Part shown: piece after piece, positions 15,685 to 47,147 of the stretch
Layout: every line of letters begins with the position of its first letter
Numbering within the stretch: the stretch's first letter is position 1
Position numbers and translations under genes: made by a program
Notes under the pieces: generated by a model
What the model was told of the DNA's origin: nothing
What the model saw: the letters and a program-made list of their open reading frames with translations, nothing else
Databases searched by the model: none
IMG/VR virus record: IMGVR_UViG_3300042268_000564
DNA: 64,000 nt
Source of the DNA: a virus
Taxonomy: Duplodnaviria > Caudoviricetes
Direction: 5' to 3' (one strand)

Positions 15685-16037
15685 ACGTGCCAATAAAAAT
15701 TAAACAAGATATCAAAGTTTTATATTTGCCAAAAGACAGGCTGCTGAACGGAGAATATGAAATAGAATTTTATCAAAATGGTCTATTGTTAAGTCTTGGC
15801 GAGGAATATAAATTAGTGCTGAGAGACACTAAACTTTACGCTGAATTTCTTTATCCTAATGATGGCGATGTGTTCAAAATGAGAATCCAGAGTCGTGTTA
15901 TTGATAGTTCTAATTTTGGAGCTTATATCTGTTGCTCGATGTTTTGTAAAAGATTTCATAACAAATCTAACTTGTTTTTTTCAGGGATTGTGTTAATAGA
16001 TGATGAAATAGCTAATATTGAAATGGACTTACTCTAA
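15681..16037 (+). CDS. Hypothetical protein ending EMDLL
   Basis: FYQNGLLLSLGEEYKL resembles the previous gene. Confidence 0.6.
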   Translation: MNVPIKIKQDIKVLYLPKDRLLNGEYEIEFYQNGLLLSLGEEYKLVLRDTKLYAEFLYPNDGDVFKMRIQSRVIDSSNFGAYICCSMFCKRFHNKSNLFFSGIVLIDDEIANIEMDLL

Positions 16038-17224
16038 TCCATTAAGCAAAAATCCAGCTCATTATCATAGAATTTTTTAATTCTATTCTCTGCAATCTTT
16101 ACATATTCAGGGCTAAGTTCTATTCCGATAAAGTTTTTATTTTGCTCCATTGCTACGATACCAGTAGTCCCAGAGCCAAAGAATGGGTCGAGCACGGTTC
16201 CACCTTCAGGACAGCCAGCAAGAATACATGGCGTTATTAATTCACGAGGATAAGAAGCGTAGTGTTTTTCATTATTGCCTTTAACAGCAATTGTCCAAAC
16301 GTCTCTGCGATTGCGCATCTCATCTACGTGCCTTTTCCCTAATTCCTTTAGACCATCTTTGTTGTGTCCGCCACATTCTGACCAAGTGAAATGATTTTGT
16401 CCGCCGGGCAGGTCACCAGCTCTTACTGATGGCTCTTTGATTGCATCATTGTTGAAATAATATTTTGGCTTTTTGCTGAAAAGGAAAATGTATTCGTGAG
16501 CACGGCTACAACGGTCTTGAACTGATTCAGGCATTGGGTTCCCGCTCCAGCCATGTTTGCAGGCATCGCCAGAAACACCTTTTGCCCAAATGATGTCTTG
16601 ACGTAAAATCCAGCCATCATCTTGTAGTGCAAATGCCACCCTCCAAGGAATTCCCAACAAATTCTTTGCAGGCAATTCTTTGGTCGTTTTTGTTAAGGTA
16701 CCAGTTGTAGAACCTTTATTTGTTTTTTGCATCTCAGAGCCGACTATTGAACCGTCGCTCATCATTCCCTTACCACTGCCAGCATAAGAATCACCTAAAT
16801 TGAGCCATAAAGTGCCTGATGGTTTTAATACCCTACGTATCTCTCTGAATACCACAGTGAGCTTTTCAAGGTATTCTTTCATTGTAAATTCAAGACCAAT
16901 TTGTTTGTCGATTCTTTTTGCGCCACATTTCTCACAGATATCTTTGTAATAGTAGCCATCTATTTTTGTTTCTTCTCGACTCGGACGATTTTGATTAAAC
17001 TCAGGATTGCCAAATTTCTTTGTTCTTGTTGGGTCAGCTACGTGGTCGCAATCAAGCGAACCACCCTCCCACGTAGACGTTCCATAATCACGAAGCCCAA
17101 GGTAGGGAGGCGAGGTTACACAGCAATCAACAGAGTTGTCTGGTAGTTGTTTTAAGACCTCTATGCAGTCACCGTTGATGATGGAGTTGGGTTCAATCGT
17201 GGGTGTTGTAGTGACGTTTATCAT
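16034..17224 (-). CDS. DNA methyltransferase, N4-C/N6-A beta class
   Basis: VTSPPY catalytic motif, WLNLGDSY, DPFFGSGTT SAM-binding motif, FIGIEL. Confidence 0.92.
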   Translation of the reverse strand: MINVTTTPTIEPNSIINGDCIEVLKQLPDNSVDCCVTSPPYLGLRDYGTSTWEGGSLDCDHVADPTRTKKFGNPEFNQNRPSREETKIDGYYYKDICEKCGAKRIDKQIGLEFTMKEYLEKLTVVFREIRRVLKPSGTLWLNLGDSYAGSGKGMMSDGSIVGSEMQKTNKGSTTGTLTKTTKELPAKNLLGIPWRVAFALQDDGWILRQDIIWAKGVSGDACKHGWSGNPMPESVQDRCSRAHEYIFLFSKKPKYYFNNDAIKEPSVRAGDLPGGQNHFTWSECGGHNKDGLKELGKRHVDEMRNRRDVWTIAVKGNNEKHYASYPRELITPCILAGCPEGGTVLDPFFGSGTTGIVAMEQNKNFIGIELSPEYVKIAENRIKKFYDNELDFCLMD

Positions 17225-17265
17225 TTAAACATATCCAATTCTTCAAATTTGTATACTTTTGCCAT
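17221..17265 (-). CDS. 14-aa micro-ORF MAKVYKFEELDMFK
   Basis: GAGGT RBS 10 nt upstream; TGA overlaps the ATG of the MTase at 17224; encodes the EELDMF motif. Confidence 0.6.
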   Translation of the reverse strand: MAKVYKFEELDMFK

Positions 17266-17291
17266 ACAATCGTTTACCTCTGCTATACAAT

Positions 17292-17351
17292 CTTGTTCAT
17301 TTTTTAATTTTGTTCACAAAAAATGAACAAGCATTTTTTGTGAACAAAATT
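17292..17351. repeat. Overlapping perfect inverted repeats built from four TTGTTCA/TGAACAA units
   Basis: 20-bp arms 17306-17325 and 17332-17351; alternative 14-bp arms 17292-17305 and 17318-17331. Confidence 0.85.
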
Positions 17352-18775
17352 TAATCGAACATGTCTATTTCTTGCATTTGAATAGCAGGGAATTGACTAT
17401 TGCTGGACAGGGGAACTTTTTCTTTTTTATGAACATTAGCCGTAGCGCAGGTTTCATTGGCTACAATCTCAAGTCTGGCTTTTGCAGTGCCGAATGATTC
17501 CTTTTCTTTCTCAATACCAATAAAATATCTACCTTCCATCAAGCAGCCAATGCCTGTAGAGCCACTTCCCATAAATGGGTCTAATACAATGCCCCCAGTT
17601 GGCGTTTTTGTTAATTTAGCAAGGTAAGACATGAGGTTGCGATTTTTTACAGCAGGATGTTTGTTTTCTACTTGTCCATCGCACGTCCTATCTCGTTTTG
17701 AGGCTTTCGCACAATAATAGAATCTTGCAATGGAGCCTGAATCGCCATGTTGGTTTTGCGGGTTGCTTTTACCTCGCAAGAGGGTGGTGTTGCTGTCGCC
17801 ATCATAAGCATTTACATCTTTCTTTGTTGCACCTGATTTGGTTTTGCCATATTTATTAAATTCTTGCATTACATCATCAGAGCCGTCGTGAATCACGTTA
17901 CTGGGGAAACGACCATTCTCGCTATTTTTTATGATTTGTTCAGGAGGGAGTATGGGACTGACATTGAAATCAATATTTGCACTTTTGTTTGTTTTCACAC
18001 TTTTAAAGCTGTGCCTTTTTTGTTCATATTTTTCTCTGTCAGATAGACCTATTGGCACTCTGCACTCCTCAATGTTTAAGCCAGCCACACCCCATTTAAG
18101 AGCATTATCAACATAACTGCCCTCATTAGGCTTCGTCATTACCAAAATTGGCTCAAAGGCAGGTTTAAGTGCGTGACTATGCCAACCATTCCATAGTTCG
18201 GCTTCAGGACTTGCTGGTTTTGTAATTTGGATAACATTGCCATGTTCATTGTAGTTATTAGGTCTATGTCCTTGTACCACATTTGCTTTGTTGACATTTG
18301 CCATTCCGCCAGACTTTGTAATGGTCTCAGATATAACCTCTCGTTCAAGCCCTTTTGTCTTGTCTATTTTTTTTGAAATGTTAAGCGATTTGGGAAATCC
18401 TTCTGAGTGAAGAAAGAATATACAATCCTTGAATGTAAAGCCTGCGAGCTGCATAGAGATTGCCATCAAGTCGAAGGTTCTAGTCCCAGCAAATACCAGC
18501 GCAGTACCTCCCGGCTTTAAAACACGACAAACTTCTTTCCAGATAGCAGGAGGTGGAACGCTGCTGTCCCATTCTTTACTCATAAAACCTTTAGCCCCCA
18601 CTTTGTCGGCAGAATGTTGTCCCAAATCAAGCCATTCCTGTAACAAGCCAGCGAGGTCTTTTATCTCGCCTAGCCCGTATGGTGGGTCGGAAATTACAGT
18701 GTCGACAGAGTTGTCGTCCATTTTTTTAAGCTCGTCGTAACAATCGCCGTGGATGAGTTGGTATTTTTCCTGCAT
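17351..18775 (-). CDS. DNA methyltransferase, N6-A/N4-C beta class
   Basis: ISDPPY, GFPKS, GRFPSNVI, HPAVK, DPFMGSGST; ends QEIDMFD. Confidence 0.92.
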   Translation of the reverse strand: MQEKYQLIHGDCYDELKKMDDNSVDTVISDPPYGLGEIKDLAGLLQEWLDLGQHSADKVGAKGFMSKEWDSSVPPPAIWKEVCRVLKPGGTALVFAGTRTFDLMAISMQLAGFTFKDCIFFLHSEGFPKSLNISKKIDKTKGLEREVISETITKSGGMANVNKANVVQGHRPNNYNEHGNVIQITKPASPEAELWNGWHSHALKPAFEPILVMTKPNEGSYVDNALKWGVAGLNIEECRVPIGLSDREKYEQKRHSFKSVKTNKSANIDFNVSPILPPEQIIKNSENGRFPSNVIHDGSDDVMQEFNKYGKTKSGATKKDVNAYDGDSNTTLLRGKSNPQNQHGDSGSIARFYYCAKASKRDRTCDGQVENKHPAVKNRNLMSYLAKLTKTPTGGIVLDPFMGSGSTGIGCLMEGRYFIGIEKEKESFGTAKARLEIVANETCATANVHKKEKVPLSSNSQFPAIQMQEIDMFD

Positions 18776-18785
18776 AATTTTCCCA

Positions 18786-18813
18786 TTGACAATATTGATT
18801 CGCTATTTATAAT
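18786..18813 (+). promoter_or_regulatory. Promoter TTGACA-N16-TATAAT
   Basis: Perfect hexamers. Confidence 0.8.
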
Positions 18814-18832
18814 ACCTTTGACGGGAGAAAAT

Positions 18833-19180: not shown

Positions 19181-19183
19181 AAA

Positions 19184-19813
19184 ATGATTTCAGTGATTAC
19201 TAACTTCGGGTGTGATGAGGGATGTTCTTATTGCATAATGCGAGGACATCCTTTTGAACATGTAAAAACAACTGTTCAATCCACTGATTGGGAAGAATTA
19301 AAACGGGTTTTGCAAGGGCAGATAAGAATTTCTGTTTCTGGTGGTGGCGACCCTTTATATCAACTTGAGCAAAATATGGACTGGTGGGAACATTTCTTTG
19401 ACGTTGCACAAGGTCTTGAAATTGACTTACACACAGCAAAACTATCGCCAGTCAGCTTTGCAAGGAATTTCGCAAAGTATGTTTGGCATGTTAAAGACAT
19501 AACAAAACCAATAGCGTTAGAATATAAACAACTGGTTGACTATGGAATACCTGTAAGAATGGTAGCTGTGGGAGAAGAAAGATACACTGAGGATGATTAT
19601 CTGCGTTTCGCAAGGCAAGTTGTGATGATGGGGTTTCAATGTTCTTTCCGTGAATTGGTTGTTGATGGTGAAGCAAAGAATATCGCTTTGACAAGTTTTT
19701 TGGAGACAGAGCGTTGGTGGAAATTTGTTCGGCAAGCTGATTATAATACGTATTTCATGCCCGATAATAATCTTTATGATAAGTTCTTGATAGGAGAAAC
19801 CTCTCATGCTTAA
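19184..19813 (+). CDS. Radical SAM protein
   Basis: GCDEGCSYC (CxxxCxxC), ISVSGGGDP. Confidence 0.85.
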   Translation: MISVITNFGCDEGCSYCIMRGHPFEHVKTTVQSTDWEELKRVLQGQIRISVSGGGDPLYQLEQNMDWWEHFFDVAQGLEIDLHTAKLSPVSFARNFAKYVWHVKDITKPIALEYKQLVDYGIPVRMVAVGEERYTEDDYLRFARQVVMMGFQCSFRELVVDGEAKNIALTSFLETERWWKFVRQADYNTYFMPDNNLYDKFLIGETSHA

Positions 19814-21860
19814 ATTTAAAAATGCATTTTATTTGCCTTCTGGACGAATTTTTCTGCTCGAAACAGGTGACGGTTATCCCATTGAATGTACTGAAATGAG
19901 AGACGTGATGGTTGATAGCAAGCAACATGATGCAGTAAGAACCAGTATCGACCCGAAAGTTATTTGGCAGCATTTGCGCCCGTATGACAAGAAATGGCTT
20001 CTCACTGTGAGCACTCAGAAAGGTTGTCCGCATAATTGTCAATTTTGTTTGGTACCCGGTTCGCCAATATTGATGCAAAACTTTAATTCAATACCGATAG
20101 AAGAAGTGAAATTAAATGATATTGTTTGGGTTCCAACCCCGTCTAATGAGTTCTGCAAATATCCTGCACAATATGCAACAAAAAAATATGTTAGCCTGAG
20201 CAAGGTAACTGGTTTAATTAAACGGGTTTATAGTGGAGAAGTCTTTTCTATCAAAACTAAGTCGGGTTTATGTATAGAATGGATAACACAAGAACACCCT
20301 GTTTATGTGTTACGAAAAGGGCGTTTTAAAGCAACTCCAGCAAATGAGCTTAGTGTTGGTGACACAGTTCTTTCTTTTAAGTCTGCAAGTCTTTCCCCTA
20401 CGAATATTAATTGGGAAAGGGGATGGCTTGCTGGCATGGCGGATGGTGATATGTATAGAGGTTTTTATACAAATACTATGATGCCAAGAATGTCATTAAT
20501 GCAAAATAATATTGAAGTTGTGGCTTTTGCAAAAAGCATTCTAGACAAATATGGGATTAATACGAGTGCAATAAACCCGGTAAAAAACAAGGGAAACGGG
20601 GGCTATATAGTTACATGGGGTGGCAAAGCTGTTGTTGAATTTGATAATTTTATTAATGATGGCGAACAAGATGAGGATTATATGAGAGGGTATATCGCAG
20701 GTTTTTGGGACGCTGAAGGGGCTAACTTGTCTAATGGCGATTGTGTTAGAGCTTATAATAAAAATATAGCTTTTTTAAACAAAGCAGAAAGCTATTGTCA
20801 TCGACTTGGATATATTTCTGCACATGTAGTGCATTCTTCTGGCTGTAGCTACATACAAACAGGAATTCGAAAATTTGATTTTATTACTAAATTTAGACCA
20901 CAGCATCCAAAATCTTTTTTTTGGCGCAATCAAAACAAGACAAGATGGGCGGCTGACACTTATGGAGTGGATACGATTATAGAAATTCAAAAAAAGCAGT
21001 ATTGTGGAGTCGTTCACAATATAGAAACTGAAATGCATTCATACTTTACTGGCGGGGTTGCAAACCATAATTGTGACGTCGCGCCGCTCCCATTCGAGGG
21101 GAATTTAACGAGGAACGAAATTCTTGCTCAGGTGCAATTTTTGATAAGAACGACACCGTATGCAGTTGGCAGCCAAAAGGTTAAGATTGGTTTCGCTCGA
21201 ATGGGCGAGCCTGCCCACAACCTGCAAAACGTATTGGATGCCATACGAGAACTTTTGCCGCCATATGAAAAAGGGAAAACAGTGGAAATTGTTGGCGGGA
21301 CAATGCCATTCTGTAATTTTAAGTGGCTCCCATGCTTTAATTCTATTCTGCCACGAAAAACTATAGAGGGATTAAGCGGTGAAGATGTTCTGAAGCGTGT
21401 TATTGAGTTTAAAGAGACTGTCTGTCATGGTTTTTTGCATTTACAGATAAGTTGTAATTCCACAGATGAGACCAAGCGCAAAGAATTGTTTGGTGGGGCG
21501 GATGTTCTTTCCTTGCCAGAAATAGTTGAAATAGTCAACAAAACTGAAATAACCGACAGAACTATTACTTTGAATTTTATTGTGATGAAGGGGGTAGAGG
21601 TCGATGTTCAGAAGCTTGTAAAAATGGGCTTGAATCCCAACAAGTTCGCAGTGAAACTTATTCCGTTGAATCAGACTAACAATAGCAGTGAGAATGGTCT
21701 TGAAACATTTGCCAATTACGACAACTATGATGATTTGAAAAAGTTGGCAGATGAATTTAAAAGCCATAATATCCCTGTAGTTTTTGATGCAATTGCCAAG
21801 TGCGAAGAAGCTGGACTCTGCTGTGGGCAGTTGGCACATATTTTTATAAAAAATGCTTGA
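19806..21860 (+). CDS. RlmN/Cfr-like radical SAM enzyme interrupted by an intein
   Basis: VSTQKGCPHNCQF|C, GNLTRNEILAQV, RMGEP, KLIPLN, CCGQL; exteins total 342 aa. Confidence 0.85.
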   Translation: MLKFKNAFYLPSGRIFLLETGDGYPIECTEMRDVMVDSKQHDAVRTSIDPKVIWQHLRPYDKKWLLTVSTQKGCPHNCQFCLVPGSPILMQNFNSIPIEEVKLNDIVWVPTPSNEFCKYPAQYATKKYVSLSKVTGLIKRVYSGEVFSIKTKSGLCIEWITQEHPVYVLRKGRFKATPANELSVGDTVLSFKSASLSPTNINWERGWLAGMADGDMYRGFYTNTMMPRMSLMQNNIEVVAFAKSILDKYGINTSAINPVKNKGNGGYIVTWGGKAVVEFDNFINDGEQDEDYMRGYIAGFWDAEGANLSNGDCVRAYNKNIAFLNKAESYCHRLGYISAHVVHSSGCSYIQTGIRKFDFITKFRPQHPKSFFWRNQNKTRWAADTYGVDTIIEIQKKQYCGVVHNIETEMHSYFTGGVANHNCDVAPLPFEGNLTRNEILAQVQFLIRTTPYAVGSQKVKIGFARMGEPAHNLQNVLDAIRELLPPYEKGKTVEIVGGTMPFCNFKWLPCFNSILPRKTIEGLSGEDVLKRVIEFKETVCHGFLHLQISCNSTDETKRKELFGGADVLSLPEIVEIVNKTEITDRTITLNFIVMKGVEVDVQKLVKMGLNPNKFAVKLIPLNQTNNSSENGLETFANYDNYDDLKKLADEFKSHNIPVVFDAIAKCEEAGLCCGQLAHIFIKNA
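20046..21071 (+). mobile_element. Intein with LAGLIDADG homing endonuclease (342 aa)
   Basis: Starts CLVPGSPI, block B TQEHP, WLAGMADGD and YIAGFWDAEG, ends VHNIET...VANHN followed by Cys. Confidence 0.92.
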
Positions 21861-25319: not shown

Positions 25320-26489
25320 ATGGAATTCAAAACAAAACATGCTTATGTCTTATTTGGCAATGCTTTACAACGATTAAAAGAGATTCCTGACGAATCCGTA
25401 CATTGCTGTGTCACAAGCCCCCCTTATTATGGCTTGCGTTCATATTTGCCTGACGAACATCCTGACAAGGTGGATGAAATTGGGCTTGAACAATCACCAA
25501 AAGATTATATCAATAATTTGGTAATGATTTTCAGGGAAATTAGACGTATTTTGCGACCCGACGGCTCGGTCTGGGTGAACATAGGTGACTGTTATGTAGC
25601 TGGGAAAGGGACAGCAAGCCCTACAACTACAGATAGCAAAGCTTTGTTAAAAGAAATGAATGTAAAGCCGAAAGATTTGCTTGGAATCCCTTGGATGTTG
25701 GCTTTTGCCTTAAGAGATGATGGGTGGTATTTGCGTCAAGAAGTCATTTGGTCAAAGGTTTCTGCAATGCCTGAATCAGTGACTGATAGATTTACAAAAG
25801 CGCATGAACAAGTGTTTCTTTTGACAAAAAATGCGAAATATTTTTTTGATAATGAAGCGGTAAAAGAGAAGGCTGTATCGAATAAAAAAGGTTCCAGAGT
25901 ATTTGGCTCAAAAGAACAAGTTGGAACTTTAAGAAATGATATAGGCAGAGAATTTGTTGATAATGGCAAGAGGAATAAACGGTCAGTCTGGCATATTGCA
26001 CCTGAATCGTATAGTGGGGCACATTTTGCTGTTATGCCAAAGAAATTAGTAGAGCCATGTATTCTTGCAGGCACGTCCGAAAAGGGATGTTGTTCTGTTT
26101 GCGGGAATCCTATTGTTAGACTTACAGAAAGACAAGTTGCAACATCAAAGTCTTGTCCTAAAACAGAAGAGGCACACAAGGCTAGAGGCGGTCAAGGTGA
26201 GCCTTCTGGTACCGTGGGGAAGTCGGGCAGTGGAAGGGTTGACGGTTATACTATAACGGTTGGATGGGAGCCAACATGTAGTTGTGGCAAAGGAATTTCG
26301 CCATGCAAAGTAATAGACCCATTCGCTGGCTCTGGAACTGTTGGCGAGGTTGCCTTGAAGTTTGGACGTGATTTTGTCGGCATTGAGCTTAATGGTGAGT
26401 ATTATTCTTTAATAGAGAAGAGATTGCAAGAGGCAGAGCTTGTGGCAAGCATGAAAACAGTGAGCTACGAAGAATTGGAAATGGAATGA
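25320..26489 (+). CDS. DNA methyltransferase, N4-C/N6-A beta class
   Basis: VTSPPY, WVNIGD, AHFAVMP, DPFAGSGT; paralog of 16034..17224; ends YEELEME. Confidence 0.92.
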   Translation: MEFKTKHAYVLFGNALQRLKEIPDESVHCCVTSPPYYGLRSYLPDEHPDKVDEIGLEQSPKDYINNLVMIFREIRRILRPDGSVWVNIGDCYVAGKGTASPTTTDSKALLKEMNVKPKDLLGIPWMLAFALRDDGWYLRQEVIWSKVSAMPESVTDRFTKAHEQVFLLTKNAKYFFDNEAVKEKAVSNKKGSRVFGSKEQVGTLRNDIGREFVDNGKRNKRSVWHIAPESYSGAHFAVMPKKLVEPCILAGTSEKGCCSVCGNPIVRLTERQVATSKSCPKTEEAHKARGGQGEPSGTVGKSGSGRVDGYTITVGWEPTCSCGKGISPCKVIDPFAGSGTVGEVALKFGRDFVGIELNGEYYSLIEKRLQEAELVASMKTVSYEELEME

Positions 26490-30647: not shown

Positions 30648-31187
30648 ATGCAAAGCGATAAAAATTTAAGTAAATATCTGAGTCTTATACTTCGACACGC
30701 ACCTGAGCAAATCGGGTTAAACCTTGATTCAGAGGGTTGGGGCAACGTTGATTTTATTGTGGGGAAAGTTGTTGGGCTTACCAGAGAGCGGTTGGAAAAG
30801 ATAGTGGCAGAGGATAATAAGCAACGTTATTCTTTTAATAAAGACCGTACAATGATTCGAGCCAATCAAGGGCATAGTGTTGCTGTTGACTTGAAGCTGG
30901 AACCAGTTGAACCGCCAGTGTGGCTTTTTCATGGCACTGCCGCAAGAAATGTTAAGAACATCGTTACGCATGGACTCAAGAAAATGAGTCGCCAACATGT
31001 TCATTTAAGTGCGGACGAAGAAACAGCCTACAAAGTGGGTGCAAGACATGGAAATCCTGTTGTATTTCACATTCCTGCAAAAGTGATGCACATGCAGGGA
31101 CATAAATTTTATTTGTCGAAAAATGGCGTCTGGCTGGCAGAATCAATCCCGTCAGAATATTTGCAGAAAATAGTTTATTCGATTTAG
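30648..31187 (+). CDS. kptA: RNA 2'-phosphotransferase (Tpt1/KptA family)
   Basis: LSKYLSLILRH, DNKQRY, IRANQGHS, LFHGT, MSRQHVHLS, NGVWL. Confidence 0.95.
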   Translation: MQSDKNLSKYLSLILRHAPEQIGLNLDSEGWGNVDFIVGKVVGLTRERLEKIVAEDNKQRYSFNKDRTMIRANQGHSVAVDLKLEPVEPPVWLFHGTAARNVKNIVTHGLKKMSRQHVHLSADEETAYKVGARHGNPVVFHIPAKVMHMQGHKFYLSKNGVWLAESIPSEYLQKIVYSI

Positions 31188-37660: not shown

Positions 37661-38719
37661 ATGATTCGACGAGTACAACTTAATATCAATTATGCAAATA
37701 ACGTGAAATTAACAACGTTAGACAGCTTTTTTGTTGAAGCTGCAAATGTTATTAATTTGTACATTGATAAATTATGGGTTAATCAAGATTTTAGTAGTAA
37801 ATTTGTAACCGAGAAAGTGGAGACTTGGCTATCAGCTAGGATGCAACAATGTCTTGGCAAGCAAGCTCTTGAAATCGTAAAATCTCAACGGAAAAAGAAG
37901 AAAAGAAGCAAGCCTGTTTTTCAACGAAAAACATTTAACTTAGACAGTAGATTCGTAAAAATAACACAAGATGTAAATAGTTTTGATATCTGGATTACAC
38001 TAACATCTATTGGCAACAAAATAAAATTAATATTGCCAAGTAAAAAACATCAACATTTTCATAAGTTTGATAAGTGGGAATTACAGAAATCAATCCGAGT
38101 TAGAAAAAATAATGATGGAAAATATTTCGTCGACGTTTACTTTAAAAAAGAAGAAAAAGTAAAAGAGACAGAAGGCGATGTAATCGGTTTAGATATTGGC
38201 TATAAAAAATTAATAACATGTTCTGATGGAAAATTTTATGGCGAAAATGTGGATGAAATTTATAATAAAATATCCCGAAAGAAACAAGGCAGCAAGGCTT
38301 TTAAACGAGCCTTGACCGAACGAGACAATAAAACAAATAAGATTGTAAATCAAATACAAATAGAGACTAGAAATATAAAAGAAATTGTAGTCGAAGATTT
38401 AAAGAATTTGAAACGTGGAACTAAGGGGCATCTTCGGAAGTCCTTTGTAAATAAGTTGCAGCGGTGGTCTTACGTAAATGTTTTGCGTAAATTATCGTGC
38501 ATGGCAGAAGAGTTAGGTTTTGTTTTAACTAAGATAAATCCTGCTTATACTAGCCAAAAATGCAGCAAATGTGGAGTGATTTGTAAAACAAACCGACAAG
38601 GTGAAAGTTACAAATGTGCTTGCGGTTTAGAGATGGATGCAGACTTAAATGCAGCTATTAATATTCTGCACTTGGGAATTTATAGTTCTCAAGCTTTATG
38701 TATGAAATTGCACAAATAA
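37661..38719 (+). mobile_element. tnpB: TnpB RNA-guided endonuclease (IS200/IS605 family), no adjacent TnpA
   Basis: RuvC residues in IGLDIG, VVEDL, DADLNAA; PAYTSQKCSKC Zn ribbon. Confidence 0.9.
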
Positions 38720-39097: not shown

Positions 39098-39345
39098 TGC
39101 AGGATGGTAGATATTATTTCAGGCTTGACCGTGAAAAGATGGTTATGGAGCCTATAAAGTTTGAGAATTTTGGCGATATTTGTAAAGATGATATCGTAAT
39201 GTATGTCGATGTTGATGACTCTGTCACAGATAATCCTATGTTAAGTAGCACGCCATTATTCAAAGTGAATGATGTGGGCACTAATGAACAAGGTGAAAAA
39301 TATCTGCAATCAGACAGAGTTACACAATTCTTTGTTGATTTGTGA
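39097..39345 (+). CDS. Hypothetical protein
   Basis: TAATG-coupled. Confidence 0.6.
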   Translation: MQDGRYYFRLDREKMVMEPIKFENFGDICKDDIVMYVDVDDSVTDNPMLSSTPLFKVNDVGTNEQGEKYLQSDRVTQFFVDL

Positions 39346-40100
39346 TGATTGACCTATTGCATGGCGATTGTCTTGATGAAATGCATAAGATTCAAGACAA
39401 GTCTGTAGATTTCATTTGTTGCGACTTGCCTTACGGCGCAATCGCGCAGGAATGGGACAAGCAGATAGATATTGTCATGTTATGGGAACATTACAATAGA
39501 ATCCTTAAAAAAGATGGTACAATCGCATTATTCGGCTCACAGCCATTTACCACACAATTAATCGCAAGTAACTTAAAGGATTTCAAATATTGCTGGTATT
39601 GGATTAAGAATCAGGGAACCAATTTCTTTCATGCCAATAAAATGCCAATAAGAAAAGTCGAAGAAATATGCATATTCAAAAATGGTAAATATTTCCCTCA
39701 AAAAACAAAAGGGCACGAACCTACCAGAGCCGCAATAGGTTGCAGTAACGGGAACGCCTACCATGGTGATAATAAGCGGAATTATGAGGGTGGCGATACA
39801 ACAAGGATGCCGACGAATGTGTTGAGTTTCAAGTGTGTGGATAATTACAATCGGTTTCATGTGTCAGAAAAGCCTGTTGATTTGTTGAGATATTTGGTGA
39901 AAACATACACAAATGAAAATGATGTGGTGCTTGATAATTGCATGGGCAGTGGCTCTATGGGGGTTGCTTGTATTGAAACAGGACGGCGGTTTGTTGGGAT
40001 AGAACTGGAACAGGAATATTTCGCTATAGCATCTGATAGAATTAATAATGCTTACAGAGATAATTCTGTCGATTTTGAAGAGGTGGACATGTTCGAATGA
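39342..40100 (+). CDS. DNA methyltransferase, N6-A/N4-C beta class
   Basis: CDLPY, EKPVDLL, DNCMGSGS, FVGIE; ends EEVDMFE. Confidence 0.92.
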   Translation: MMIDLLHGDCLDEMHKIQDKSVDFICCDLPYGAIAQEWDKQIDIVMLWEHYNRILKKDGTIALFGSQPFTTQLIASNLKDFKYCWYWIKNQGTNFFHANKMPIRKVEEICIFKNGKYFPQKTKGHEPTRAAIGCSNGNAYHGDNKRNYEGGDTTRMPTNVLSFKCVDNYNRFHVSEKPVDLLRYLVKTYTNENDVVLDNCMGSGSMGVACIETGRRFVGIELEQEYFAIASDRINNAYRDNSVDFEEVDMFE

Positions 40101-41142: not shown

Positions 41143-42345
41143 TTAAACTTGTCTTTGTTCATGGGGGACGGTACGCACCCCACTCAAGAAACGATTGCGG
41201 ATATTCAGGCTCCCATTATAGTCAGCATCTAAAGATACATGACATTGTTCGCAATCATATCTTTCACCATTTCTTGATTCCTTGCAGATTGCTCCGCAAT
41301 TAGAACATATTTGACTCGTATACTCAGGCGCAACAAATGCAAGAAAAACACGGTTTTCCGCACATTTATTGGCTAATCGCCCGAATAAAAGTCTACTATT
41401 CCAGCTCCCCAAAGTTTTTCGATGTTCCTTGGAGGATTTGCCTCTTTTGCTCATGTGACGAACCTTGAGGTCTTCCAAAACAATAGCACAAACATCTTTC
41501 AAATCCAGCTTGTTTACTTGTTGTCCAATATAGTCTTTAATCTCGGCAATAGTCTGTTTTGAGTTTTTACTGCCACGTTTCCTGCGTTTTAACTTTTGGA
41601 TTTTGGCTTCTATGTCTCTACCCAAAAATTCACCTTCAGACGTTGACATCAGTTTCTTGATTCCAACGTCAATACCAACAACCTTGCCAGTTGCTTTAAT
41701 TTCAAGAGTTTCTTTTTCCAGAAACAAATTAACGTACAGTTTATTGTCTATTCTGCGTAGTTGTACAGAAGACTTAACTGCATATCCGCTGTTAATATGT
41801 CTGTTAAACAGAGCATGTTTCTTAGTTGGCAATAATAAAGAAATTCGATTGCCGAAGATAGAGCCTAGTCTTACAGCGAGGTCAAATATTTTCATTTTAT
41901 TGGGAGACAAATATATCGTAACAAGGTCACTATTCAGGTCTATCGAGTTCCCGTTAAAAACAGGAACTTTGACTCTATCTCGGAACTTTCTGTCTTTTGC
42001 CCATACAGACCATTTTTGAGCCGTAAGTGCTTGAAATTTATTTTTGCCTTTGGCATAAGCATATACTCGTTTGTAAGCCTGATAAATTCGTTTCTGGTTC
42101 TTGGCTTGGGTTGCCTTTATCATTTGAACGGCTTGACGATAGGCGCATTTTACGGCTTTGCCACACAACCAAGTCGTAACACGTCTCCACTGTGTTGCAT
42201 TGGCTTTTGAAACAAGCTTCTTTTCGTTCCAATATAGAGTGATAAATTCATTGACAACACGTTGATATTCAACAAACAGCGAATCTAAAAGTTCTCGTTT
42301 TTTCGCTGTTATGAACTTTAAACTGTGTTGTGTACGTTTTATCAT
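41143..42345 (-). mobile_element. tnpB: TnpB RNA-guided endonuclease (IS200/IS605 family), no adjacent TnpA
   Basis: VGIDVG, VLEDL, DADYNG; PEYTSQICSNC..CEQC. Confidence 0.9.
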
Positions 42346-42740: not shown

Positions 42741-44102
42741 ATGATTGAATGTAAAGATAGTTTAGAATTTTTGAAAGAACGCCAAGACTATGAGAATGAT
42801 ATAATTTTCGCAGACCCACCATATGCACTTGGCTCTGAGATAATGATAAGACCTGACGGTAAAGTAGATTACAAAAAAGCCGCTGATTTTATGGGCAAGT
42901 GGGATATGCCCACAGGTGATTGGTGGGAACAGTGGTTTAAAGAAGCTTTCAGAAGCTTAAAGCACGGTGGTTATTGTATCTTATATGGTGTAGACCGCCA
43001 GTTACTTCTTTTTAAGTATTATGCTGCTTTAGCAGGTTTCATAGAACAGCAGAGCCTTTATTGGGCGTTTCTTAGTAATTTCCCAAAATCGGTTGACTTG
43101 AGCAAGATGCTTGATAAACATTATGGCTGCGAGCGAGAGGTTATAGGCAAATGTTTTGATGGCAAAGGTTCTGATAGTGGCAGTGGAATCTATGCCATGA
43201 ATAATGGTGAATCGAACCTCGGAAAAGAATATGATATCACTGCCCCCTCTCATGAATTAGCAAAAAAATATGATGGTTATAAATACAGCATATCACCTCT
43301 AAAACAAACCAACGAAACTGTAATGGTCTTTCAAAAGCCATATAAATCAGGCTCTTGCTTGCACGATACGTTGGCTTATGAAAACGGCGACAATACTTGT
43401 TGTTGTGGTGCGTTAAATATTGATGGAAATAGAGTTGCTACTGATGAAGAGCTTGGCAGGCAACAGGATAAAAGTCCTTTACCGCCAGAAAAAGGGTTTA
43501 ATAATAATAGTATTGGTGGTAAGTTTCAGGCAGGAAATCCAGCAGGACGTTTCCCTGCACAAACCCTTGTTGACTCGAAAATGGCTAAAGCATTAGACAA
43601 TCAAACTGATTCGGCTGATGGTGCTTCAAAATTGTTGCATATTTGTGACTTTGAATCAGATGAGCTTGAGCTTTACTATTATGAACCAAAGGTAAGCAAG
43701 AATGAACGTGACGCAGGTCTGGAAGAACTCGACCCAACAAATGCTAATAGGAACAAAGCTGCTTTAACCGCAGTGGAGAACAGAGAAGCGTCAAGTAAAA
43801 ATCCACATCCAACATTGAAACCATTGTCTTTGAACTTCCGTATTTTGAGCCTGTTTAAAACGCCTAACCCGCAGCGAATTTGCTTCCCTTTTGCTGGCAG
43901 CGGCTCAGAGGTTATCGGGGGCATTAAGGCAGGCTTTACAGATTGGACGGCGTGTGAGCTTTCGCAGGAATATGTAGATATTGCGATGAAGCGTATTGAA
44001 TATTATTCAAAAGGTGCGCCGGAACGCAAGGTAATAAAAGCTGTTGATGCCGATGGTAATGAAAAGAAAGTTATCGTTGAGCAATTGGATATGTTTGAAT
44101 GA
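42741..44102 (+). CDS. DNA methyltransferase, N6-A/N4-C beta class
   Basis: FADPPY, NFPKS, GRFPAQ, HPTLKP, PFAGSGS; paralog of 17351..18775; ends EQLDMFE. Confidence 0.9.
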   Translation: MIECKDSLEFLKERQDYENDIIFADPPYALGSEIMIRPDGKVDYKKAADFMGKWDMPTGDWWEQWFKEAFRSLKHGGYCILYGVDRQLLLFKYYAALAGFIEQQSLYWAFLSNFPKSVDLSKMLDKHYGCEREVIGKCFDGKGSDSGSGIYAMNNGESNLGKEYDITAPSHELAKKYDGYKYSISPLKQTNETVMVFQKPYKSGSCLHDTLAYENGDNTCCCGALNIDGNRVATDEELGRQQDKSPLPPEKGFNNNSIGGKFQAGNPAGRFPAQTLVDSKMAKALDNQTDSADGASKLLHICDFESDELELYYYEPKVSKNERDAGLEELDPTNANRNKAALTAVENREASSKNPHPTLKPLSLNFRILSLFKTPNPQRICFPFAGSGSEVIGGIKAGFTDWTACELSQEYVDIAMKRIEYYSKGAPERKVIKAVDADGNEKKVIVEQLDMFE

Positions 44103-44860
44103 ATGCAATTTATCATGCTGATTGTTTTGAGATTTTCCCAAAAATTGAATCTCAATCAGTGCAATTAATCTTGTGCGATTTACCGTATAACACAACTCAA
44201 TGTTCATGGGATTGCATATTGCCTCTCGACAAACTCTGGCAAGAATATGAGCGGATTATAAAGCCTAATGGCGCAATTGTGTTAACGGCGGCTCAACCAT
44301 TCACCAGCGAGCTTGTAATGAGCAATAAAAAGCTTTTTAAATATGAATGGATTTGGCGCAAAACAAAAGCACAGCATTTTGCTCAGGCACCATATCGTCC
44401 CATGACGAACCATGAAAGTGTCTTGGTATTTTCCTTTGGCGGCACAGCTAAAAATGCTAATAATCGCATGAAATATAATCCGCAGGGAATTGTAAAATGC
44501 AATATTACTTGCAAAGGGAAAAAGGCTACGCATTCAGAACACCGCAGTAGGTTAACAGACCAAGATGATTATGTTCAGGAATACACTAATTATCCGAAAA
44601 CGGTGATTGATTTCGCAAATGAGGGGAAGACTATTCATCCGACACAGAAACCTCTTTCTTTATTCGAGTATATCATAGAAACATATACTGACGCAGATGA
44701 CTTGGTTCTTGATAATTGTGCAGGCTCGTTTACTACTGCTGTCGCCTGCATCAACACTGATAGACGATATATTTGCATAGAGAAAGAGCAAAGATATTTT
44801 GAACTTGGCAAAGAGCGGATTGATTCGCATGTTCGAGAATATGATATGTTTAGTGATTAA
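44099..44860 (+). CDS. DNA methyltransferase, N6-A/N4-C beta class
   Basis: CDLPY, HPTQKP, DNCAGS; ends REYDMFSD. Confidence 0.92.
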   Translation: MNAIYHADCFEIFPKIESQSVQLILCDLPYNTTQCSWDCILPLDKLWQEYERIIKPNGAIVLTAAQPFTSELVMSNKKLFKYEWIWRKTKAQHFAQAPYRPMTNHESVLVFSFGGTAKNANNRMKYNPQGIVKCNITCKGKKATHSEHRSRLTDQDDYVQEYTNYPKTVIDFANEGKTIHPTQKPLSLFEYIIETYTDADDLVLDNCAGSFTTAVACINTDRRYICIEKEQRYFELGKERIDSHVREYDMFSD

Positions 44861-45664
44861 ATGACAAAATTCCAATGGACACCAGAGCTGGAAGTAAAAG
44901 TCCTTGCCTTGAAAAAGCGAGGTTTAACTTTTGCTCAAATAGCGGCTGAAATAGGAACCACAGAGCGTAGTGCAAAACATAAGGTTAGACGCTTAAGACA
45001 AGCAATGAATCAAGATAGGTATAAACATACTGACGAGAAATTGAAGCAAATACAAATTGCAGGATTAACACCTTGCCGCCGGATTTTGGAAACTCACGCA
45101 GGGTTCGGTGGTTTAACAAGACATTATGCGCAGGTGGCAGCCACTGTGACAAGCATTGAAATAAAGCAGGAACGAATTGATGAGATAAAAGCTTTGAGCT
45201 TGCCTAATGTGGAGCTGATTAAAGGTGATTCTGAAGTTGAGATTTATCGTCTGTTGCACGAACGTAGGGTTTTTGATGTGATAGATGTTGACCCTTATGG
45301 TTTGCCAAGTCGATATTTCCCTCATATTTTTGGGTTGATTGATGACGGTATATTGTTCTTAACATTCCCTGTAATGGGTGTTGCGCAGATTAATAAGATG
45401 ACGATAGCTCATTATCGTGTTTTCTGGGGGATAGAATTATCTGACAAAGATGTTTATCTGGATAAAATAAAGGCAAGGCTTGCAGAATATGCGTTTATGC
45501 ACAAACGGCAAATAGAAATTCTTGATGAGAAGCGAATCAATAGAATCTACAGGCTGGCTATTCAGGTAAAGAAAACATCATTGCTCGACATGCTTGGGCT
45601 TAAGGTGAATCGGAATAAAAAGATTGTTACAAAACAATATGAAGAAATGGACATGTTTGACTAA
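44861..45664 (+). CDS. HTH-fused SAM-dependent methyltransferase-like protein
   Basis: N-terminal WTPE...GLTFAQIAAEIG HTH; LETHAGFGG motif I; FDVIDVDPYG; ends EEMDMFD. Confidence 0.7.
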   Translation: MTKFQWTPELEVKVLALKKRGLTFAQIAAEIGTTERSAKHKVRRLRQAMNQDRYKHTDEKLKQIQIAGLTPCRRILETHAGFGGLTRHYAQVAATVTSIEIKQERIDEIKALSLPNVELIKGDSEVEIYRLLHERRVFDVIDVDPYGLPSRYFPHIFGLIDDGILFLTFPVMGVAQINKMTIAHYRVFWGIELSDKDVYLDKIKARLAEYAFMHKRQIEILDEKRINRIYRLAIQVKKTSLLDMLGLKVNRNKKIVTKQYEEMDMFD

Positions 45665-46170
45665 TGGGAATAGGTAAAAACAACGACTTTACGAGTAAAA
45701 AAGTGGAATACAGCACGCCTCTAAGCTTGTTCGTCCCTTTGAAAGATGAATTTGATATTACGGTAGACGTGTGCGCTGATGAAACTAATTTTAAGTGTGA
45801 GACATATTTTAGTGTCGATGACGATGCTTTAAGGCAGGATTGGACAGGGAACTGCTGGATGAACCCCCCGTTTACAAAAGATTTGAATAAATGGGTACGT
45901 AAAGCAAGAAACGATGCGAATGAATTTGGCGGGACAAAGGTTTGTCTTGTTCCAGTCAGGTCGAACACAAAGTGGTGGGGTGAGGTAATTGAAGACGCGG
46001 AAGTTAGATTTATTATTGGCGAGGTAAATTTTAATGATGAGCCTAGAGGACTGTGGTTGCCAATGTGTATATTGATTTTCGGCGAAAAGGCAAAAGCGGG
46101 AAAGTTTTCTACCATTTATTATAAAAAAAACACGCAAGTTAAAAATAATGAAATGGACATGTTTGATTAA
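45664..46170 (+). CDS. Phage N6-adenine DNA methyltransferase (small phage Dam family)
   Basis: STPLSLF..L..EF, DVCA, DALRQDW, WMNPPF, LVPVRSNTKWW; ends NEMDMFD. Confidence 0.9.
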   Translation: MGIGKNNDFTSKKVEYSTPLSLFVPLKDEFDITVDVCADETNFKCETYFSVDDDALRQDWTGNCWMNPPFTKDLNKWVRKARNDANEFGGTKVCLVPVRSNTKWWGEVIEDAEVRFIIGEVNFNDEPRGLWLPMCILIFGEKAKAGKFSTIYYKKNTQVKNNEMDMFD

Positions 46171-47147
46171 TGGCAGGGATAGAAGACCGTATAACAAACT
46201 ATGATGGTCAGCATTGCTGGCAATATGACATTCGATTGCGGAACCGTGACGAAGACATTGCCGAGTCTGGCTTGTCGCTTGACGAGATAGCAGCTTTAAG
46301 GTGTTCAGATTTTACTTTGCAACAAGAACCAAAAGAACAGAGCCATCACGAGATAAAACGATTCATTGAACGACACGAATGGCTTGGCACGATGCCACTT
46401 TATGCAACCCACTATTTTACGGCAAGATACAAAAACATCCTTGCAGGCGTGGTAATTATGGGTTTGCCCGGTAATTTTTCTAAGTTGCTTGGCAAGAAGT
46501 CTGAAGACCTTGAGCGTTTAATTAGTCGAGGTGCTTGTGTTTCGTGGTCGCCAAAGAACCTTGCGAGTAATTTGATTTCGTTTGCGATGAATTGGATGGT
46601 TCAGAATACAGAGTTTCGATTATTCACTGCATATAGCGATACTGAAGCAAAAGAACTGGGAACAATCTACCAAGCATGTAATTTTTATTACTTGGGCAAG
46701 ATTGCTGGTGCTACTTGGCAATATAAGTTGCCTGATGGAAAGCTAGTCTCTGACAGGCACTTTCGTAGTAGAAGTGTTTACAAAAGGCTCGCAAAAGCTG
46801 CTGGAATCTTTTGGGAAGCAAGTTGGCAGACCAGAGATACGGTACATCTGGATAGGATGCCTGACGAGGTTGCTTTTATTCTAAGGCAGATGTCGAAAGA
46901 TTATCAAAATTCCTGCGAACGTAGGAAAATATCGGCAAAACATAAATATGCCTATGTTTTGGGTAGAGACAAGCGAGAAACAAAAGCTTTACGGCGTGAA
47001 TTTGAATCAAGAAACAAAACATTTCCTTATCCAAAAGATAGATTGTCGCATGTTGAGGAACAAGTAGAATTTGAGGCACCTCTTGAGAATAAACTGGACG
47101 ATGTTTTATTAAAGCCTGCCTATACAGAAGTTGACATGTTTGAATAA
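46170..47147 (+). CDS. Mom-like adenine-modification protein (GNAT fold)
   Basis: FIERHEWLG, ISRGAC..PKNLASNLI, AYSD...GTIYQACNFYYLG; ends TEVDMFE. Confidence 0.75.
   Translation: MAGIEDRITNYDGQHCWQYDIRLRNRDEDIAESGLSLDEIAALRCSDFTLQQEPKEQSHHEIKRFIERHEWLGTMPLYATHYFTARYKNILAGVVIMGLPGNFSKLLGKKSEDLERLISRGACVSWSPKNLASNLISFAMNWMVQNTEFRLFTAYSDTEAKELGTIYQACNFYYLGKIAGATWQYKLPDGKLVSDRHFRSRSVYKRLAKAAGIFWEASWQTRDTVHLDRMPDEVAFILRQMSKDYQNSCERRKISAKHKYAYVLGRDKRETKALRREFESRNKTFPYPKDRLSHVEEQVEFEAPLENKLDDVLLKPAYTEVDMFE

What the first reader, a model, noticed from the sequence alone, without database searches (positions are those of the whole stretch)
16034..47147. Shared C-terminal E-hydrophobic-D-M-F-[D/E] tag on the DNA-modification arsenal: candidate clamp-tethered, replication-coupled genome modification system
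Seen: enzymes from different families end in the same peptide: 17351..18775 QEIDMFD, 39342..40100 EEVDMFE, 42741..44102 EQLDMFE, 44099..44860 REYDMFSD, 44861..45664 EEMDMFD, 45664..46170 NEMDMFD, 46170..47147 TEVDMFE, with weaker forms in 25320..26489 (YEELEME) and 16034..17224 (NELDFCLMD). The tail follows the catalytic domain, usually after a charged linker. Codons vary synonymously (GAC/GAT, TTT/TTC), pointing to selection on the peptide rather than on a DNA repeat. The carriers include beta-class MTases, a small phage Dam, an HTH-MTase and a GNAT-fold Mom-like protein, so the tag was probably added independently to each. Known: bacterial beta-clamp-binding motifs have consensus QL[S/D]LF and E. 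coli DnaE carries QADMF; T4 gp43/gp33/gp55 use a C-terminal LDFL-type peptide to bind the gp45 clamp. A DnaX clamp-loader subunit is encoded in this window. Inference: the phage docks its anti-restriction modifiers on a sliding clamp so new DNA is modified at the fork, analogous to Dnmt1-PCNA. Alternative: a sorting, packaging or proteolysis signal.
Basis: partly seen in the sequence, partly recalled or inferred. Interest (0 to 1): 0.92.

Follow-up and report, generated by a model that had tools for sequence, protein, structure and literature searches.

The report
Clamp-docking tails on phage DNA-modifying enzymes
A 394-kb uncultured phage gives seven DNA methyltransferase or Mom-type enzymes (plus a ligase and a radical-SAM-like enzyme) the short peptide its own DNA polymerase carries at the sliding-clamp-binding site, so these enzymes probably ride the replication clamp and modify new phage DNA as it is made; binding has not been measured.

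Summary
All seven listed ORFs end in [E/Q]-hydrophobic-D-M-F-[D/E] (one in DMFSD). Genome-wide, 9 of 529 called genes have such a tail against 0.007 expected, and 7 of the 10 DNA-modification enzymes carry it.

The clamp reading is supported by four independent lines:
- The phage's own Pol III alpha (DnaE) has QMDMF at the canonical internal beta-clamp-binding site.
- The eighth carrier, a DUF1848 protein outside the window, has its tail where 55 of 150 homologues end in the classical QLSLF-type clamp motif.
- The phage encodes a divergent beta clamp (fold confirmed), DnaX and SSB, but no gp45 or PCNA type clamp.
- A co-fold puts the last 10 residues of the Mom-like tail in the canonical pocket (ipSAE 0.63, best control 0.00). 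This could partly be memory of solved complexes.

The tails are lineage-specific additions: only the closest Mom and Dam homologues have them. The two "weaker forms" do not fit the motif.

Binding is unmeasured, and phage and host clamp cannot be told apart here. A 2024 beta-clamp review that I read names no methyltransferase client. This scan has already noted similar clamp-type tails on methyltransferases of other phages, with different motifs.

The parts
17351..18775 (-). N6/N4 DNA methyltransferase, 474 aa, tail QEIDMFD
   Evidence: PF01555 E 3.7e-27; tail
39342..40100 (+). N6/N4 DNA methyltransferase, 252 aa, tail EEVDMFE
   Evidence: PF01555 E 3.3e-25; tail
42741..44102 (+). N6/N4 DNA methyltransferase, 453 aa, tail EQLDMFE; first gene of a five-gene tagged operon with overlapping stops and starts
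   Evidence: PF01555 E 3.6e-11; PHROG DNA methyltransferase; junctions
44099..44860 (+). N6/N4 DNA methyltransferase, 253 aa, tail REYDMFSD
   Evidence: PF01555 E 9.1e-25; the homologous gene fragment in relative L052 ends VEYDMFD
44861..45664 (+). 267-aa protein, putative methyltransferase with an HTH-like N-terminus (family not secured), tail EEMDMFD
   Evidence: Only sub-threshold Pfam hits (TRM, RrnaAD, GcrA, sigma-70 r4); no PHROG
45664..46170 (+). Small phage Dam-type N6-adenine methyltransferase, 168 aa, tail NEMDMFD
   Evidence: PF05869 E 1.7e-24. Only the closest homologue (82% identity) has a tail, QERDMFE; 119 others end about 12 residues earlier
46170..47147 (+). Mom-like DNA modification protein, 325 aa, about 35-aa linker plus tail TEVDMFE
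   Evidence: PF25680 E 2.3e-12. The 4 closest full-length homologues, plus a 186-aa 100%-identical fragment, carry the extension ending EL[DN]MF[DE]; 115 others end at PKERGK. Co-fold with the clamp
1541..1555 (-). Internal EVDMF inside the DinG-type helicase (752 aa, window 2074 down to beyond the window start), after a poly-Lys stretch
   Evidence: The motif lies in a stretch (aa 152-243) that does not align with E. coli DinG between conserved blocks. Pfam helicase domains
3574..4998 (-). DnaX-type clamp-loader ATPase, 474 aa
   Evidence: PF13177 E 2.6e-40 and PF22608
17221..17265 (-). 14-codon micro-ORF ending EELDMFK; its stop overlaps the start of the untagged MTase 16034-17224
   Evidence: Uncertain: about 0.5 such six-frame matches are expected by chance
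16034..17224 (-). N6/N4 DNA methyltransferase, 396 aa, WITHOUT the tag (ends NELDFCLMD)
   Evidence: PF01555 E 7.9e-51; tail lacks the M-F core
25320..26489 (+). N6/N4 DNA methyltransferase, 389 aa, WITHOUT the tag (ends YEELEME)
   Evidence: PF01555 E 2.2e-40; tail lacks D-M-F

Best explanation
The shared tail [E/Q]-hydrophobic-D-M-F-[D/E] is this phage lineage's version of the bacterial beta-clamp-binding motif (consensus QL[S/D]LF; QADMF in E. coli Pol III alpha). The phage has a bacterial-type replisome of its own: DnaE, a divergent 450-aa beta clamp, DnaX, SSB, an NAD-dependent ligase and a DinG helicase. A short flexible linker ending in the motif has been added to most of its DNA-modification enzymes. 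Through it they would dock in the hydrophobic pocket between clamp domains II and III, the site the polymerase uses. Clamps loaded at the fork and left on new DNA would then carry the methyltransferases, the Mom-type enzyme and a radical-SAM-like DUF1848 enzyme along nascent duplex. The genome would so be modified as it is copied, before packaging. Shown: the motif, its enrichment, its identity with the polymerase's motif, the presence and fold of the clamp, and the lineage-specific addition of the tails. Inferred: physical binding, which clamp is used (phage, host or both), and the effect on modification.
For: (1) Enrichment: 9 of 529 genes carry the tail against 0.007 expected, and 7 of 10 modification enzymes against 2 of 519 others.
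(2) The phage DnaE (1204 aa; Pfam) has GQMDMF at aa 922-927. It aligns column for column with GQLDLF of the E. coli alpha chain in 5FKU and GQFDLF of M. tuberculosis DnaE1. This is the internal clamp-binding site, QADMF in wild-type E. coli (PMC11139829).
(3) The motif is not position-bound. It is N-terminal in a 189-aa protein that overlaps the DnaE start, internal in DinG, and C-terminal (as ELNMFD) on the NAD ligase three genes upstream of the clamp gene. All carriers of known function act on DNA.
(4) DUF1848: 55 of 150 cluster representatives end in Q-x-x-[LMIF]-[FLYM] (QLSLF, QLDLF, QIDMF and others), aligned with the phage's EMDMFE. The count is 0 of 120 for Mom homologues and 0 of 120 for Dam homologues.
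(5) Clamp: the 450-aa protein folds with pLDDT 87, and its top 50 PDB matches are all DnaN clamps (E 4e-25, TM by target 0.86). A family profile hits 41 PDB sequences, all beta clamps or clamp fusions (best E 1.8e-7). No gp45 or PCNA type clamp was found.
(6) Co-fold of two clamp copies with the last 40 aa of the Mom-like protein: ipSAE 0.63 (runs 0.62-0.64), best of 3 controls 0.00. That mark was reached by 58 of 80 solved complexes and 2 of 110 mismatched pairs. Runs agree in at least 61% of contacts; partner pLDDT is at least 41. Only peptide residues 31-40 touch, at clamp residues 213-218, 305-310, 388-393 and the C-terminal 445-450, which is the canonical pocket. Solved clamp-peptide complexes are many, so this may be memory.
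(7) Lineage-specific addition: only the closest Mom homologues (64-74% identity) and the closest Dam homologue have tails. Their linkers diverge while the tail is kept. Relatives' contigs show neighbouring MTases ending KQIDMFDV and VEYDMFD.
(8) Negative control: 480 kb around 80 other metagenomic homologues of an MTase holds no such tail.
Against: No binding has been measured. Eight of the eleven D-M-F motif copies (and the ligase's ELNMF) start with Glu, not Gln, and Gln-to-Glu in QLDLF greatly lowers affinity for the E. coli clamp (PMC11139829). So these would be weak ligands of a standard clamp unless the phage pocket is adapted. Three PF01555 methyltransferases lack a working tag: window 16034-17224, window 25320-26489, and genome 66244-67089, which ends REYDMTEVV. 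The ligase of a relative lacks the tag. The co-fold partner has low pLDDT (41-44) and the pass may reflect similarity to solved complexes. Contact residues are not clearly more conserved than the rest of the clamp family.
Confidence: 0.75

Rival explanations
1. The tails bind the host's beta clamp rather than, or as well as, the phage clamp. They would recruit the modifiers to any replisome, or compete with host clamp clients and disturb host replication.
For: The motif falls within the general bacterial consensus. The pocket-lining motifs of the phage clamp (P-N-W-R-R-V, C-terminal M-P) resemble those of bacterial clamps. Phage Mu's MuC uses the host clamp through such a motif (bioRxiv 10.1101/2025.01.04.631326).
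Against: The phage has its own clamp, loader and polymerase, and the polymerase carries the same D-M-F core. Glu at position 1 weakens binding to a standard clamp. The host is unknown, so its clamp could not be tested.
Confidence: 0.12
2. The tail docks the enzymes on another replisome hub (polymerase, helicase or an SSB-tail-binding pocket), in the manner of acidic C-terminal tails ending in Phe such as those of T7 gp2.5 and gp4 or bacterial SSB.
For: The tail is acidic with a Phe next to the end, which loosely resembles such tails (my own knowledge; not tested).
Against: It does not explain why the same five residues sit at the canonical clamp-binding site of DnaE, or why DUF1848 homologues carry classical clamp motifs there. 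The phage SSB ends differently (GAGENW).
Confidence: 0.06
3. The tail is a C-terminal degradation or sorting signal: a degron for the phage's or host's ClpXP-type protease, or a signal for packaging the enzymes into the capsid, as with the P1 Dar proteins.
For: It is a short C-terminal peptide shared by unrelated proteins.
Against: The same motif occurs internally (DnaE, DinG) and N-terminally (189-aa protein), where a C-terminal degron could not work. All carriers of known function act on DNA. Known ClpX C-terminal degrons end in non-polar residues, whereas this tail ends in an acid (my own knowledge). No virion protein carries it.
Confidence: 0.05

Closest known systems
Bacterial beta-clamp-binding motif clients (QL[S/D]LF pentapeptide; Pol III alpha internal QADMF, Pol II, Pol IV, Pol V, Hda, MutS/MutL, LigA); review PMC11139829
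   Same: A five-residue motif with the same hydrophobic pattern, at a terminus or in an exposed loop after a flexible linker. It is identical in core to the cognate polymerase's motif. A beta-type clamp is present, and the predicted docking is in the pocket between domains II and III.
   Different: The clients here are DNA methyltransferases, a Mom-type enzyme and a DUF1848 enzyme; the 2024 review does not contain the word methyltransferase. Most copies have Glu rather than Gln at position 1, and the C-terminal copies also end in an acid. The clamp is a divergent 450-aa phage form, with insertions, that fails Pfam thresholds.
DNMT1-PCNA (PIP-box tethering of the maintenance methyltransferase to the eukaryotic clamp; cited in PMC9690074)
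   Same: The logic is the same: a DNA methyltransferase is tethered to the sliding clamp, so new DNA is methylated behind the fork.
   Different: The motif (QxxLxxFF PIP box), the clamp (PCNA trimer) and the enzymes (C5 MTase) are unrelated, so this is convergence, not homology. Here a whole set of enzymes shares one tag.
T4/RB69 gp45 clamp clients (C-terminal tails of gp43 polymerase, gp33 and gp55)
   Same: Phage proteins of different function share the polymerase's C-terminal clamp-binding peptide.
   Different: No gp45-type clamp in this genome. The clients there are polymerase and transcription factors, not modification enzymes.
Phage Mu MuC, a late transcription activator with a beta-clamp-binding motif (bioRxiv 10.1101/2025.01.04.631326)
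   Same: A phage protein that is not a polymerase uses a clamp-binding motif.
   Different: It uses the host clamp, is a single protein, and acts in transcription rather than DNA modification.
Earlier notes of this scan on other phages ([K/R]-L-F tails on all methyltransferases of several jumbo phages; RB49-like MTase copying the gp43 tail)
   Same: The same idea: modification enzymes carry the clamp-binding tail of the phage's own replisome.
   Different: A different motif (E/Q-x-D-M-F-D/E) and a different phage lineage. Here the polymerase's internal motif and the DUF1848 family give independent anchors. Those notes are unpublished AI readings that I did not test.

Membership tests
Beta-clamp-binding motif (CBM) client | Short motif fitting Q-[L/aliphatic]-[S/D]-[L/M]-F at a terminus or in an exposed segment | tested here: met
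   Tails and internal copies read [E/Q]-[I/V/L/M/Y]-[D/N]-M-F. Position 1 is Q in 3 copies and E in the rest. The DinG copy lies in an unaligned insert.
Beta-clamp-binding motif (CBM) client | A cognate beta-type (DnaN) clamp is available | tested here: met
   The 450-aa protein (genome 154532-155884) has a model with pLDDT 87. All top Foldseek hits are DnaN (E 4e-25). The profile hits PDB beta clamps at E 1.8e-7. It scores below the Pfam cut-off.
Beta-clamp-binding motif (CBM) client | Motif matches the one used by the cognate replicative polymerase | tested here: met
   DnaE QMDMF aligns with the clamp-binding site of E. coli and M. tuberculosis alpha.
Beta-clamp-binding motif (CBM) client | Homologues carry recognised CBMs at the same position | tested here: met
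   Met for DUF1848 only: 55 of 150 representatives end in QLSLF-type motifs aligned with the phage tail. Mom and Dam homologues outside the lineage have no tail at all.
Beta-clamp-binding motif (CBM) client | Physical binding of the motif in the pocket between domains II and III | not testable with these tools
   Only a prediction is available: ipSAE 0.63 against best control 0.00, a mark reached by 58 of 80 solved and 2 of 110 mismatched pairs. Contacts lie at the canonical pocket. The pass may come from memory of solved complexes.
T4-type gp45 clamp client | gp45-type trimeric clamp encoded by the phage | tested here: not met
   PF09116 finds nothing in the genome at E <= 1, although that Pfam model is narrow.
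PCNA PIP-box client (DNMT1-like) | PCNA-type clamp and a QxxLxxFF motif | tested here: not met
   No PCNA_N match. The motif has a different form, so this is a functional analogy only.
C-terminal degron (ssrA/ClpX-type) | Signal works only at the free C-terminus and ends in non-polar residues | tested here: not met
   The same motif is internal in DnaE and DinG and N-terminal in the 189-aa protein. The tails end in D or E. Proteolysis itself was not testable.

The most novel reading that the evidence does not exclude
The Glu-first, acid-ended motif and the phage clamp form a private docking code. The clamp family always has a basic residue at one of two pocket positions (R/K390 or R393) that align with Asn and Tyr in E. 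coli-type clamps, next to motif position 1 in the model. The phage's whole modification set would then ride phage replisomes and bind the host clamp poorly. The polymerase (Gln-first) would outrank the modifiers. Separately, DUF1848, a widespread radical-SAM-like Fe-S protein of unknown function, would be an unrecognised beta-clamp client in bacteria.
Probability: 0.3. Interest if true: 0.9.

Novelty: new variant of a known kind. Interest (0 to 1): 0.78.

Why it matters
Tethering DNA methylation to the sliding clamp is textbook for animals (DNMT1-PCNA). I could not find it described for bacteria or phages: a 2024 review of the beta-clamp interactome does not contain the word methyltransferase, and targeted literature searches found nothing.

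If the tails bind, a phage solves the problem of keeping fast-replicating DNA protected from restriction in a simple way. It plugs any modification enzyme into the replisome with a roughly 6-residue tag.

This gives three practical things:
- a rule for predicting which phage proteins act on nascent DNA, including proteins of unknown function such as DUF1848 and the 189-aa protein beside DnaE;
- a natural set of motif variants for studying how clamp clients are ranked;
- a portable tag for engineering.

It also points to DUF1848 as a candidate clamp client across bacteria.

Tried and rejected
- **Megablast against phage GenBank records.** A search with the tagged operon found no match.
- **Clamp relatives in IMG/VR.** The search for related loci with the clamp alignment found none.
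- **DNA pattern for E-x-D-M-F-[D/E]-TAA across IMG/VR.** It gave 27 scattered single hits, mostly in short frames. No second phage had several tags, so it says little about spread.
- **Whole-genome Pfam annotation through an alignment id.** Abandoned, because that mode returns only a tally and not per-protein tables.
- **PF00712 (clamp N-terminal domain).** It found nothing. The clamp was caught only by a weak PF02768 hit and then by fold.
- **The 189-aa protein with the N-terminal motif.** No Pfam, PHROG or informative Atlas match.
- **Clamp contigs of the two closest relatives.** Both start at the clamp gene, so their ligase tails could not be read.
- **DUF1848 fold.** Foldseek gave only weak TIM-barrel matches. 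VIA-align gave radical-SAM cores at Z 8.9-10.1, which is modest.
- **Frameshift joining the micro-ORF to the downstream MTase.** Considered and rejected; the sequence at the junction offers no good slippery site.
- **Conservation of clamp contact residues.** Not clearly above the family average, so I make no claim from it.


Full report
**What the window is.** The window is bases 319068-383067 of a single 393,839-bp virus record (39.6% GC, CheckV completeness 100). I called 529 genes by a greedy longest-ORF rule, covering 93% of the genome.

**The observation.**
- Seven end in [E/Q]-hydrophobic-D-M-F followed by D, E or SD.
- Pfam places four of them in PF01555 (N6/N4 DNA methylase), one in PF05869 (phage Dam) and one in PF25680 (Mom). 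The 267-aa protein has only sub-threshold methyltransferase and HTH hits, and no PHROG.
- Five of the tagged genes form one operon with overlapping stops and starts (42741-47147).
- The codons of the tails differ (GAC/GAT, TTT/TTC, GAA/GAG/CAA), so this is not a DNA repeat.

**Enrichment.** Genome-wide, the pattern [EQ]-[ILVMFY]-[DN]-M-F-x(0-2)-end occurs in 9 of 529 genes.
- The expectation is 0.007 from composition and 0.0085 from shuffling tails. None of 1,876 other ORFs has it.
- The two extra carriers lie outside the window. One is a DUF1848 protein (genome 107856-108767, E 5.7e-100). The other is an NAD-dependent DNA ligase ending ELNMFD (genome 150546-152927).
- Seven of the ten DNA-modification enzymes are tagged, against 2 of 519 other genes (p = 2e-12).
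- A further PF01555 enzyme (genome 66244-67089) ends REYDMTEVV. This aligns with the REYDMFSD tail of a 24%-identical paralogue. Its last codons overlap the Shine-Dalgarno sequence of the next gene, so it looks like a decayed tag.

**The motif is the polymerase's clamp-binding motif.** A search for D-M-F anywhere in the proteome found only 15 copies, and three more have the full motif.
- A 1,204-aa DnaE (Pol III alpha; PHP, alpha, finger, HhH and OB domains) has GQMDMF at residues 922-927. In phmmer alignments this lies column for column on GQLDLF of the E. coli alpha chain in 5FKU and on GQFDLF of M. tuberculosis DnaE1. That is the internal beta-clamp-binding site, QADMF in wild-type E. coli (PMC11139829).
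- A 189-aa protein of no known family, whose gene overlaps the DnaE start, begins M-A-I-E-Q-I-D-M-F-D-D.
- The DinG-type helicase at the window's left edge has E-E-V-D-M-F after a run of lysines. The stretch (aa 152-243) does not align with E. coli DinG.

A signal that works at the C-terminus, at the N-terminus and internally, and only on DNA enzymes, behaves like a clamp-binding motif. It does not behave like a C-terminal degron.

**A second, independent anchor: DUF1848.** An exhaustive HMMER search with the phage DUF1848 protein returned 4,327 relatives.
- Of the best 150 cluster representatives, 55 end in Q-x-x-[LMIF]-[FLYM] within the last few residues (QLSLF, QLDLF, QLNLF, QMSLF, even QIDMF). 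The count is 0 of 120 for Mom homologues and 0 of 120 for Dam homologues.
- In a MAFFT alignment these classical motifs sit exactly where the phage protein has E-M-D-M-F-E.
- So in a family that carries the standard bacterial motif, this phage's copy carries the phage's dialect instead.
- The DUF1848 model (pLDDT 93.9) resembles radical-SAM cores at modest scores: Z 10.1 to a PFL-activase domain and 8.9 to spore photoproduct lyase. It has five invariant cysteines near the C-terminus. Its function is unknown.
- I found almost no literature on it.

**The receptor.**
- PF02768 gave one weak hit, in a 450-aa ORF (genome 154532-155884) three genes downstream of the ligase.
- With 16 metagenomic homologues (48-76% identity), AlphaFold gives a confident three-domain model (pLDDT 87, pTM 0.84). 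Its 50 best PDB matches are all bacterial DnaN clamps (E down to 4e-25, TM by target up to 0.87).
- The family profile hits 41 PDB sequences, all beta clamps or clamp fusions (best E 1.8e-7).
- No gp45 or PCNA type clamp was found.
- The window encodes DnaX and the genome an SSB.

**Co-fold.** I folded two clamp copies (alignment A1) with the last 40 residues of the Mom-like protein (alignment A2).
- The score was ipSAE 0.63 (runs 0.64, 0.62, 0.63) against 0.00 for the best of three controls. That mark was reached by 58 of 80 solved complexes and 2 of 110 mismatched pairs.
- The runs agree in at least 61% of contacts, and the partner's pLDDT is only 41-44.
- Only the last ten residues touch the clamp. 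The contacts are at 213-218, 305-310 (the P-N-W-R-R-V segment), 388-393 and the C-terminal M-P-V-A-I-N. These correspond to the canonical peptide pocket.
- Many clamp-peptide complexes are solved, so this pass may partly be memory. It shows likeness, not binding.

**The tails are added, and kept, in this lineage only.**
- Of the 120 best Mom-like homologues, the four closest full-length ones (64-74% identity) and a 186-aa fragment identical to the query carry a roughly 35-residue extension ending E-L-[D/N]-M-F-[D/E]. The other 115 (59-67% identity) stop at P-K-E-R-G-K.
- The linkers differ greatly while the last six residues are kept.
- For Dam, only the closest homologue (82% identity) has a tail, Q-E-R-D-M-F-E.
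- On relatives' contigs, the neighbouring methyltransferases also end K-Q-I-D-M-F-D-V and V-E-Y-D-M-F-D.
- One tagged Mom (P0021) comes from the same sample as a clamp of this family (P0009).
- As a negative control, 480 kb around 80 more distant metagenomic homologues of the untagged 396-aa MTase holds no such tail.

**A point against, and what it may mean.** Most tags begin with Glu. For the E. coli clamp, changing Gln to Glu in QLDLF greatly lowers affinity (PMC11139829).
- One possibility is that the modifiers are deliberately weaker clients than the Gln-first polymerase.
- The other is that the phage pocket accepts Glu. In the model, motif position 1 lies next to clamp residues 390 and 393. 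Every member of the clamp family has a basic residue at one of the two (R/K390 with N393, or N390 with R393). The profile alignment puts these on Asn and Tyr of the G-F-N-V-S-Y segment of E. coli-type clamps.
- The second reading is suggestive and rests on a model.

**Mechanism proposed.** Clamps are loaded at primer ends by the DnaX complex and stay on new duplex. Enzymes with the tail bind one of the two pockets of the dimer and scan nascent DNA. In this way several adenine or cytosine-N4 methylations and a Mom-type modification would be laid down as the genome is copied. The ligase and DinG use the same hub. The motif, its distribution, the clamp and the evolutionary pattern are shown. Binding, the choice between phage and host clamp, and the effect on modification are inferred.

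**Rivals.**
- Host clamp as the main receptor. This cannot be excluded because the host is unknown.
- Another replisome hub. This does not explain the DnaE site or the DUF1848 homologues.
- A degron or packaging signal. This is contradicted by the internal and N-terminal copies.

**Novelty.** Clamp-binding motifs and clamp "tool-belts" are well known, and DNMT1-PCNA is the eukaryotic analogue (PMC9690074). I found no paper describing prokaryotic or phage DNA methyltransferases as beta-clamp clients. The 2024 beta-clamp review does not contain the word methyltransferase. The library lacks most subscription journals, so this is not proof of absence. This scan has already noted the same idea, with other motifs, in other phages. 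I did not test those notes.

Noticed in passing
window 17221-17265 (-): A 14-codon ORF (M-A-K-V-Y-K-F-E-E-L-D-M-F-K) has a GAGG about 10 nt upstream. Its TGA overlaps the ATG of the untagged 396-aa methyltransferase. It could be a coupled leader, a free clamp-binding peptide or a relic of an older gene end. About 0.5 such six-frame matches are expected by chance, and no close relative was available to test conservation.
   Followed up: partly
genome 107856-108767 (-), L001:7856-8767; homologues P0258-P0407: More than a third of DUF1848 cluster representatives from public genomes and metagenomes end in a classical beta-clamp-binding motif (QLSLF and variants). The fold is radical-SAM-like with a C-terminal Cys cluster. 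The family may be an unrecognised clamp client acting on DNA.
   Followed up: partly
genome 265408-265977 (+), L016:6408-6977: A 189-aa protein of no known family starts with the motif (E-Q-I-D-M-F-D-D), and its gene overlaps the DnaE start. It may be a polymerase accessory subunit or a clamp regulator.
   Followed up: partly
genome 66244-67089 (+), L005:10744-11589: A PF01555 methyltransferase ends REYDMTEVV, with the tail aligned to the REYDMFSD of a 24%-identical paralogue. Its last codons carry the GGAGG of the next gene's ribosome-binding site, so this looks like a decayed tag.
   Followed up: yes
window 37661-38719 (+) and 41143-42345 (-): Two TnpB/Cas12f1-like genes (PF07282) lie among the methyltransferase genes, which suggests IS200/IS605-type elements moving within the modification region.
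   Followed up: no
window 19184-21860 (+): A weak radical-SAM ORF is followed by a 684-aa ORF with intein-splicing and LAGLIDADG hits. This may be an intein-bearing gene.
   Followed up: no
window 5504-6874 (-) and 30648-31187 (+): A trigger-factor-like protein (Trigger_N plus FKBP) and a Tpt1/KptA RNA 2'-phosphotransferase. Both are unusual cargo for a phage.
   Followed up: no
genome 256294-258786 (+), L015:15794-18286: An 830-aa protein with no Pfam match, in the replication region, ends P-E-L-F-E. This may be a looser form of the tail.
   Followed up: no
L022:256-2397: The NAD ligase of a relative (clamp 52% identical) keeps synteny with the clamp gene but has no clamp-type tail. The ligase tag is therefore not conserved across the lineage.
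   Followed up: yes
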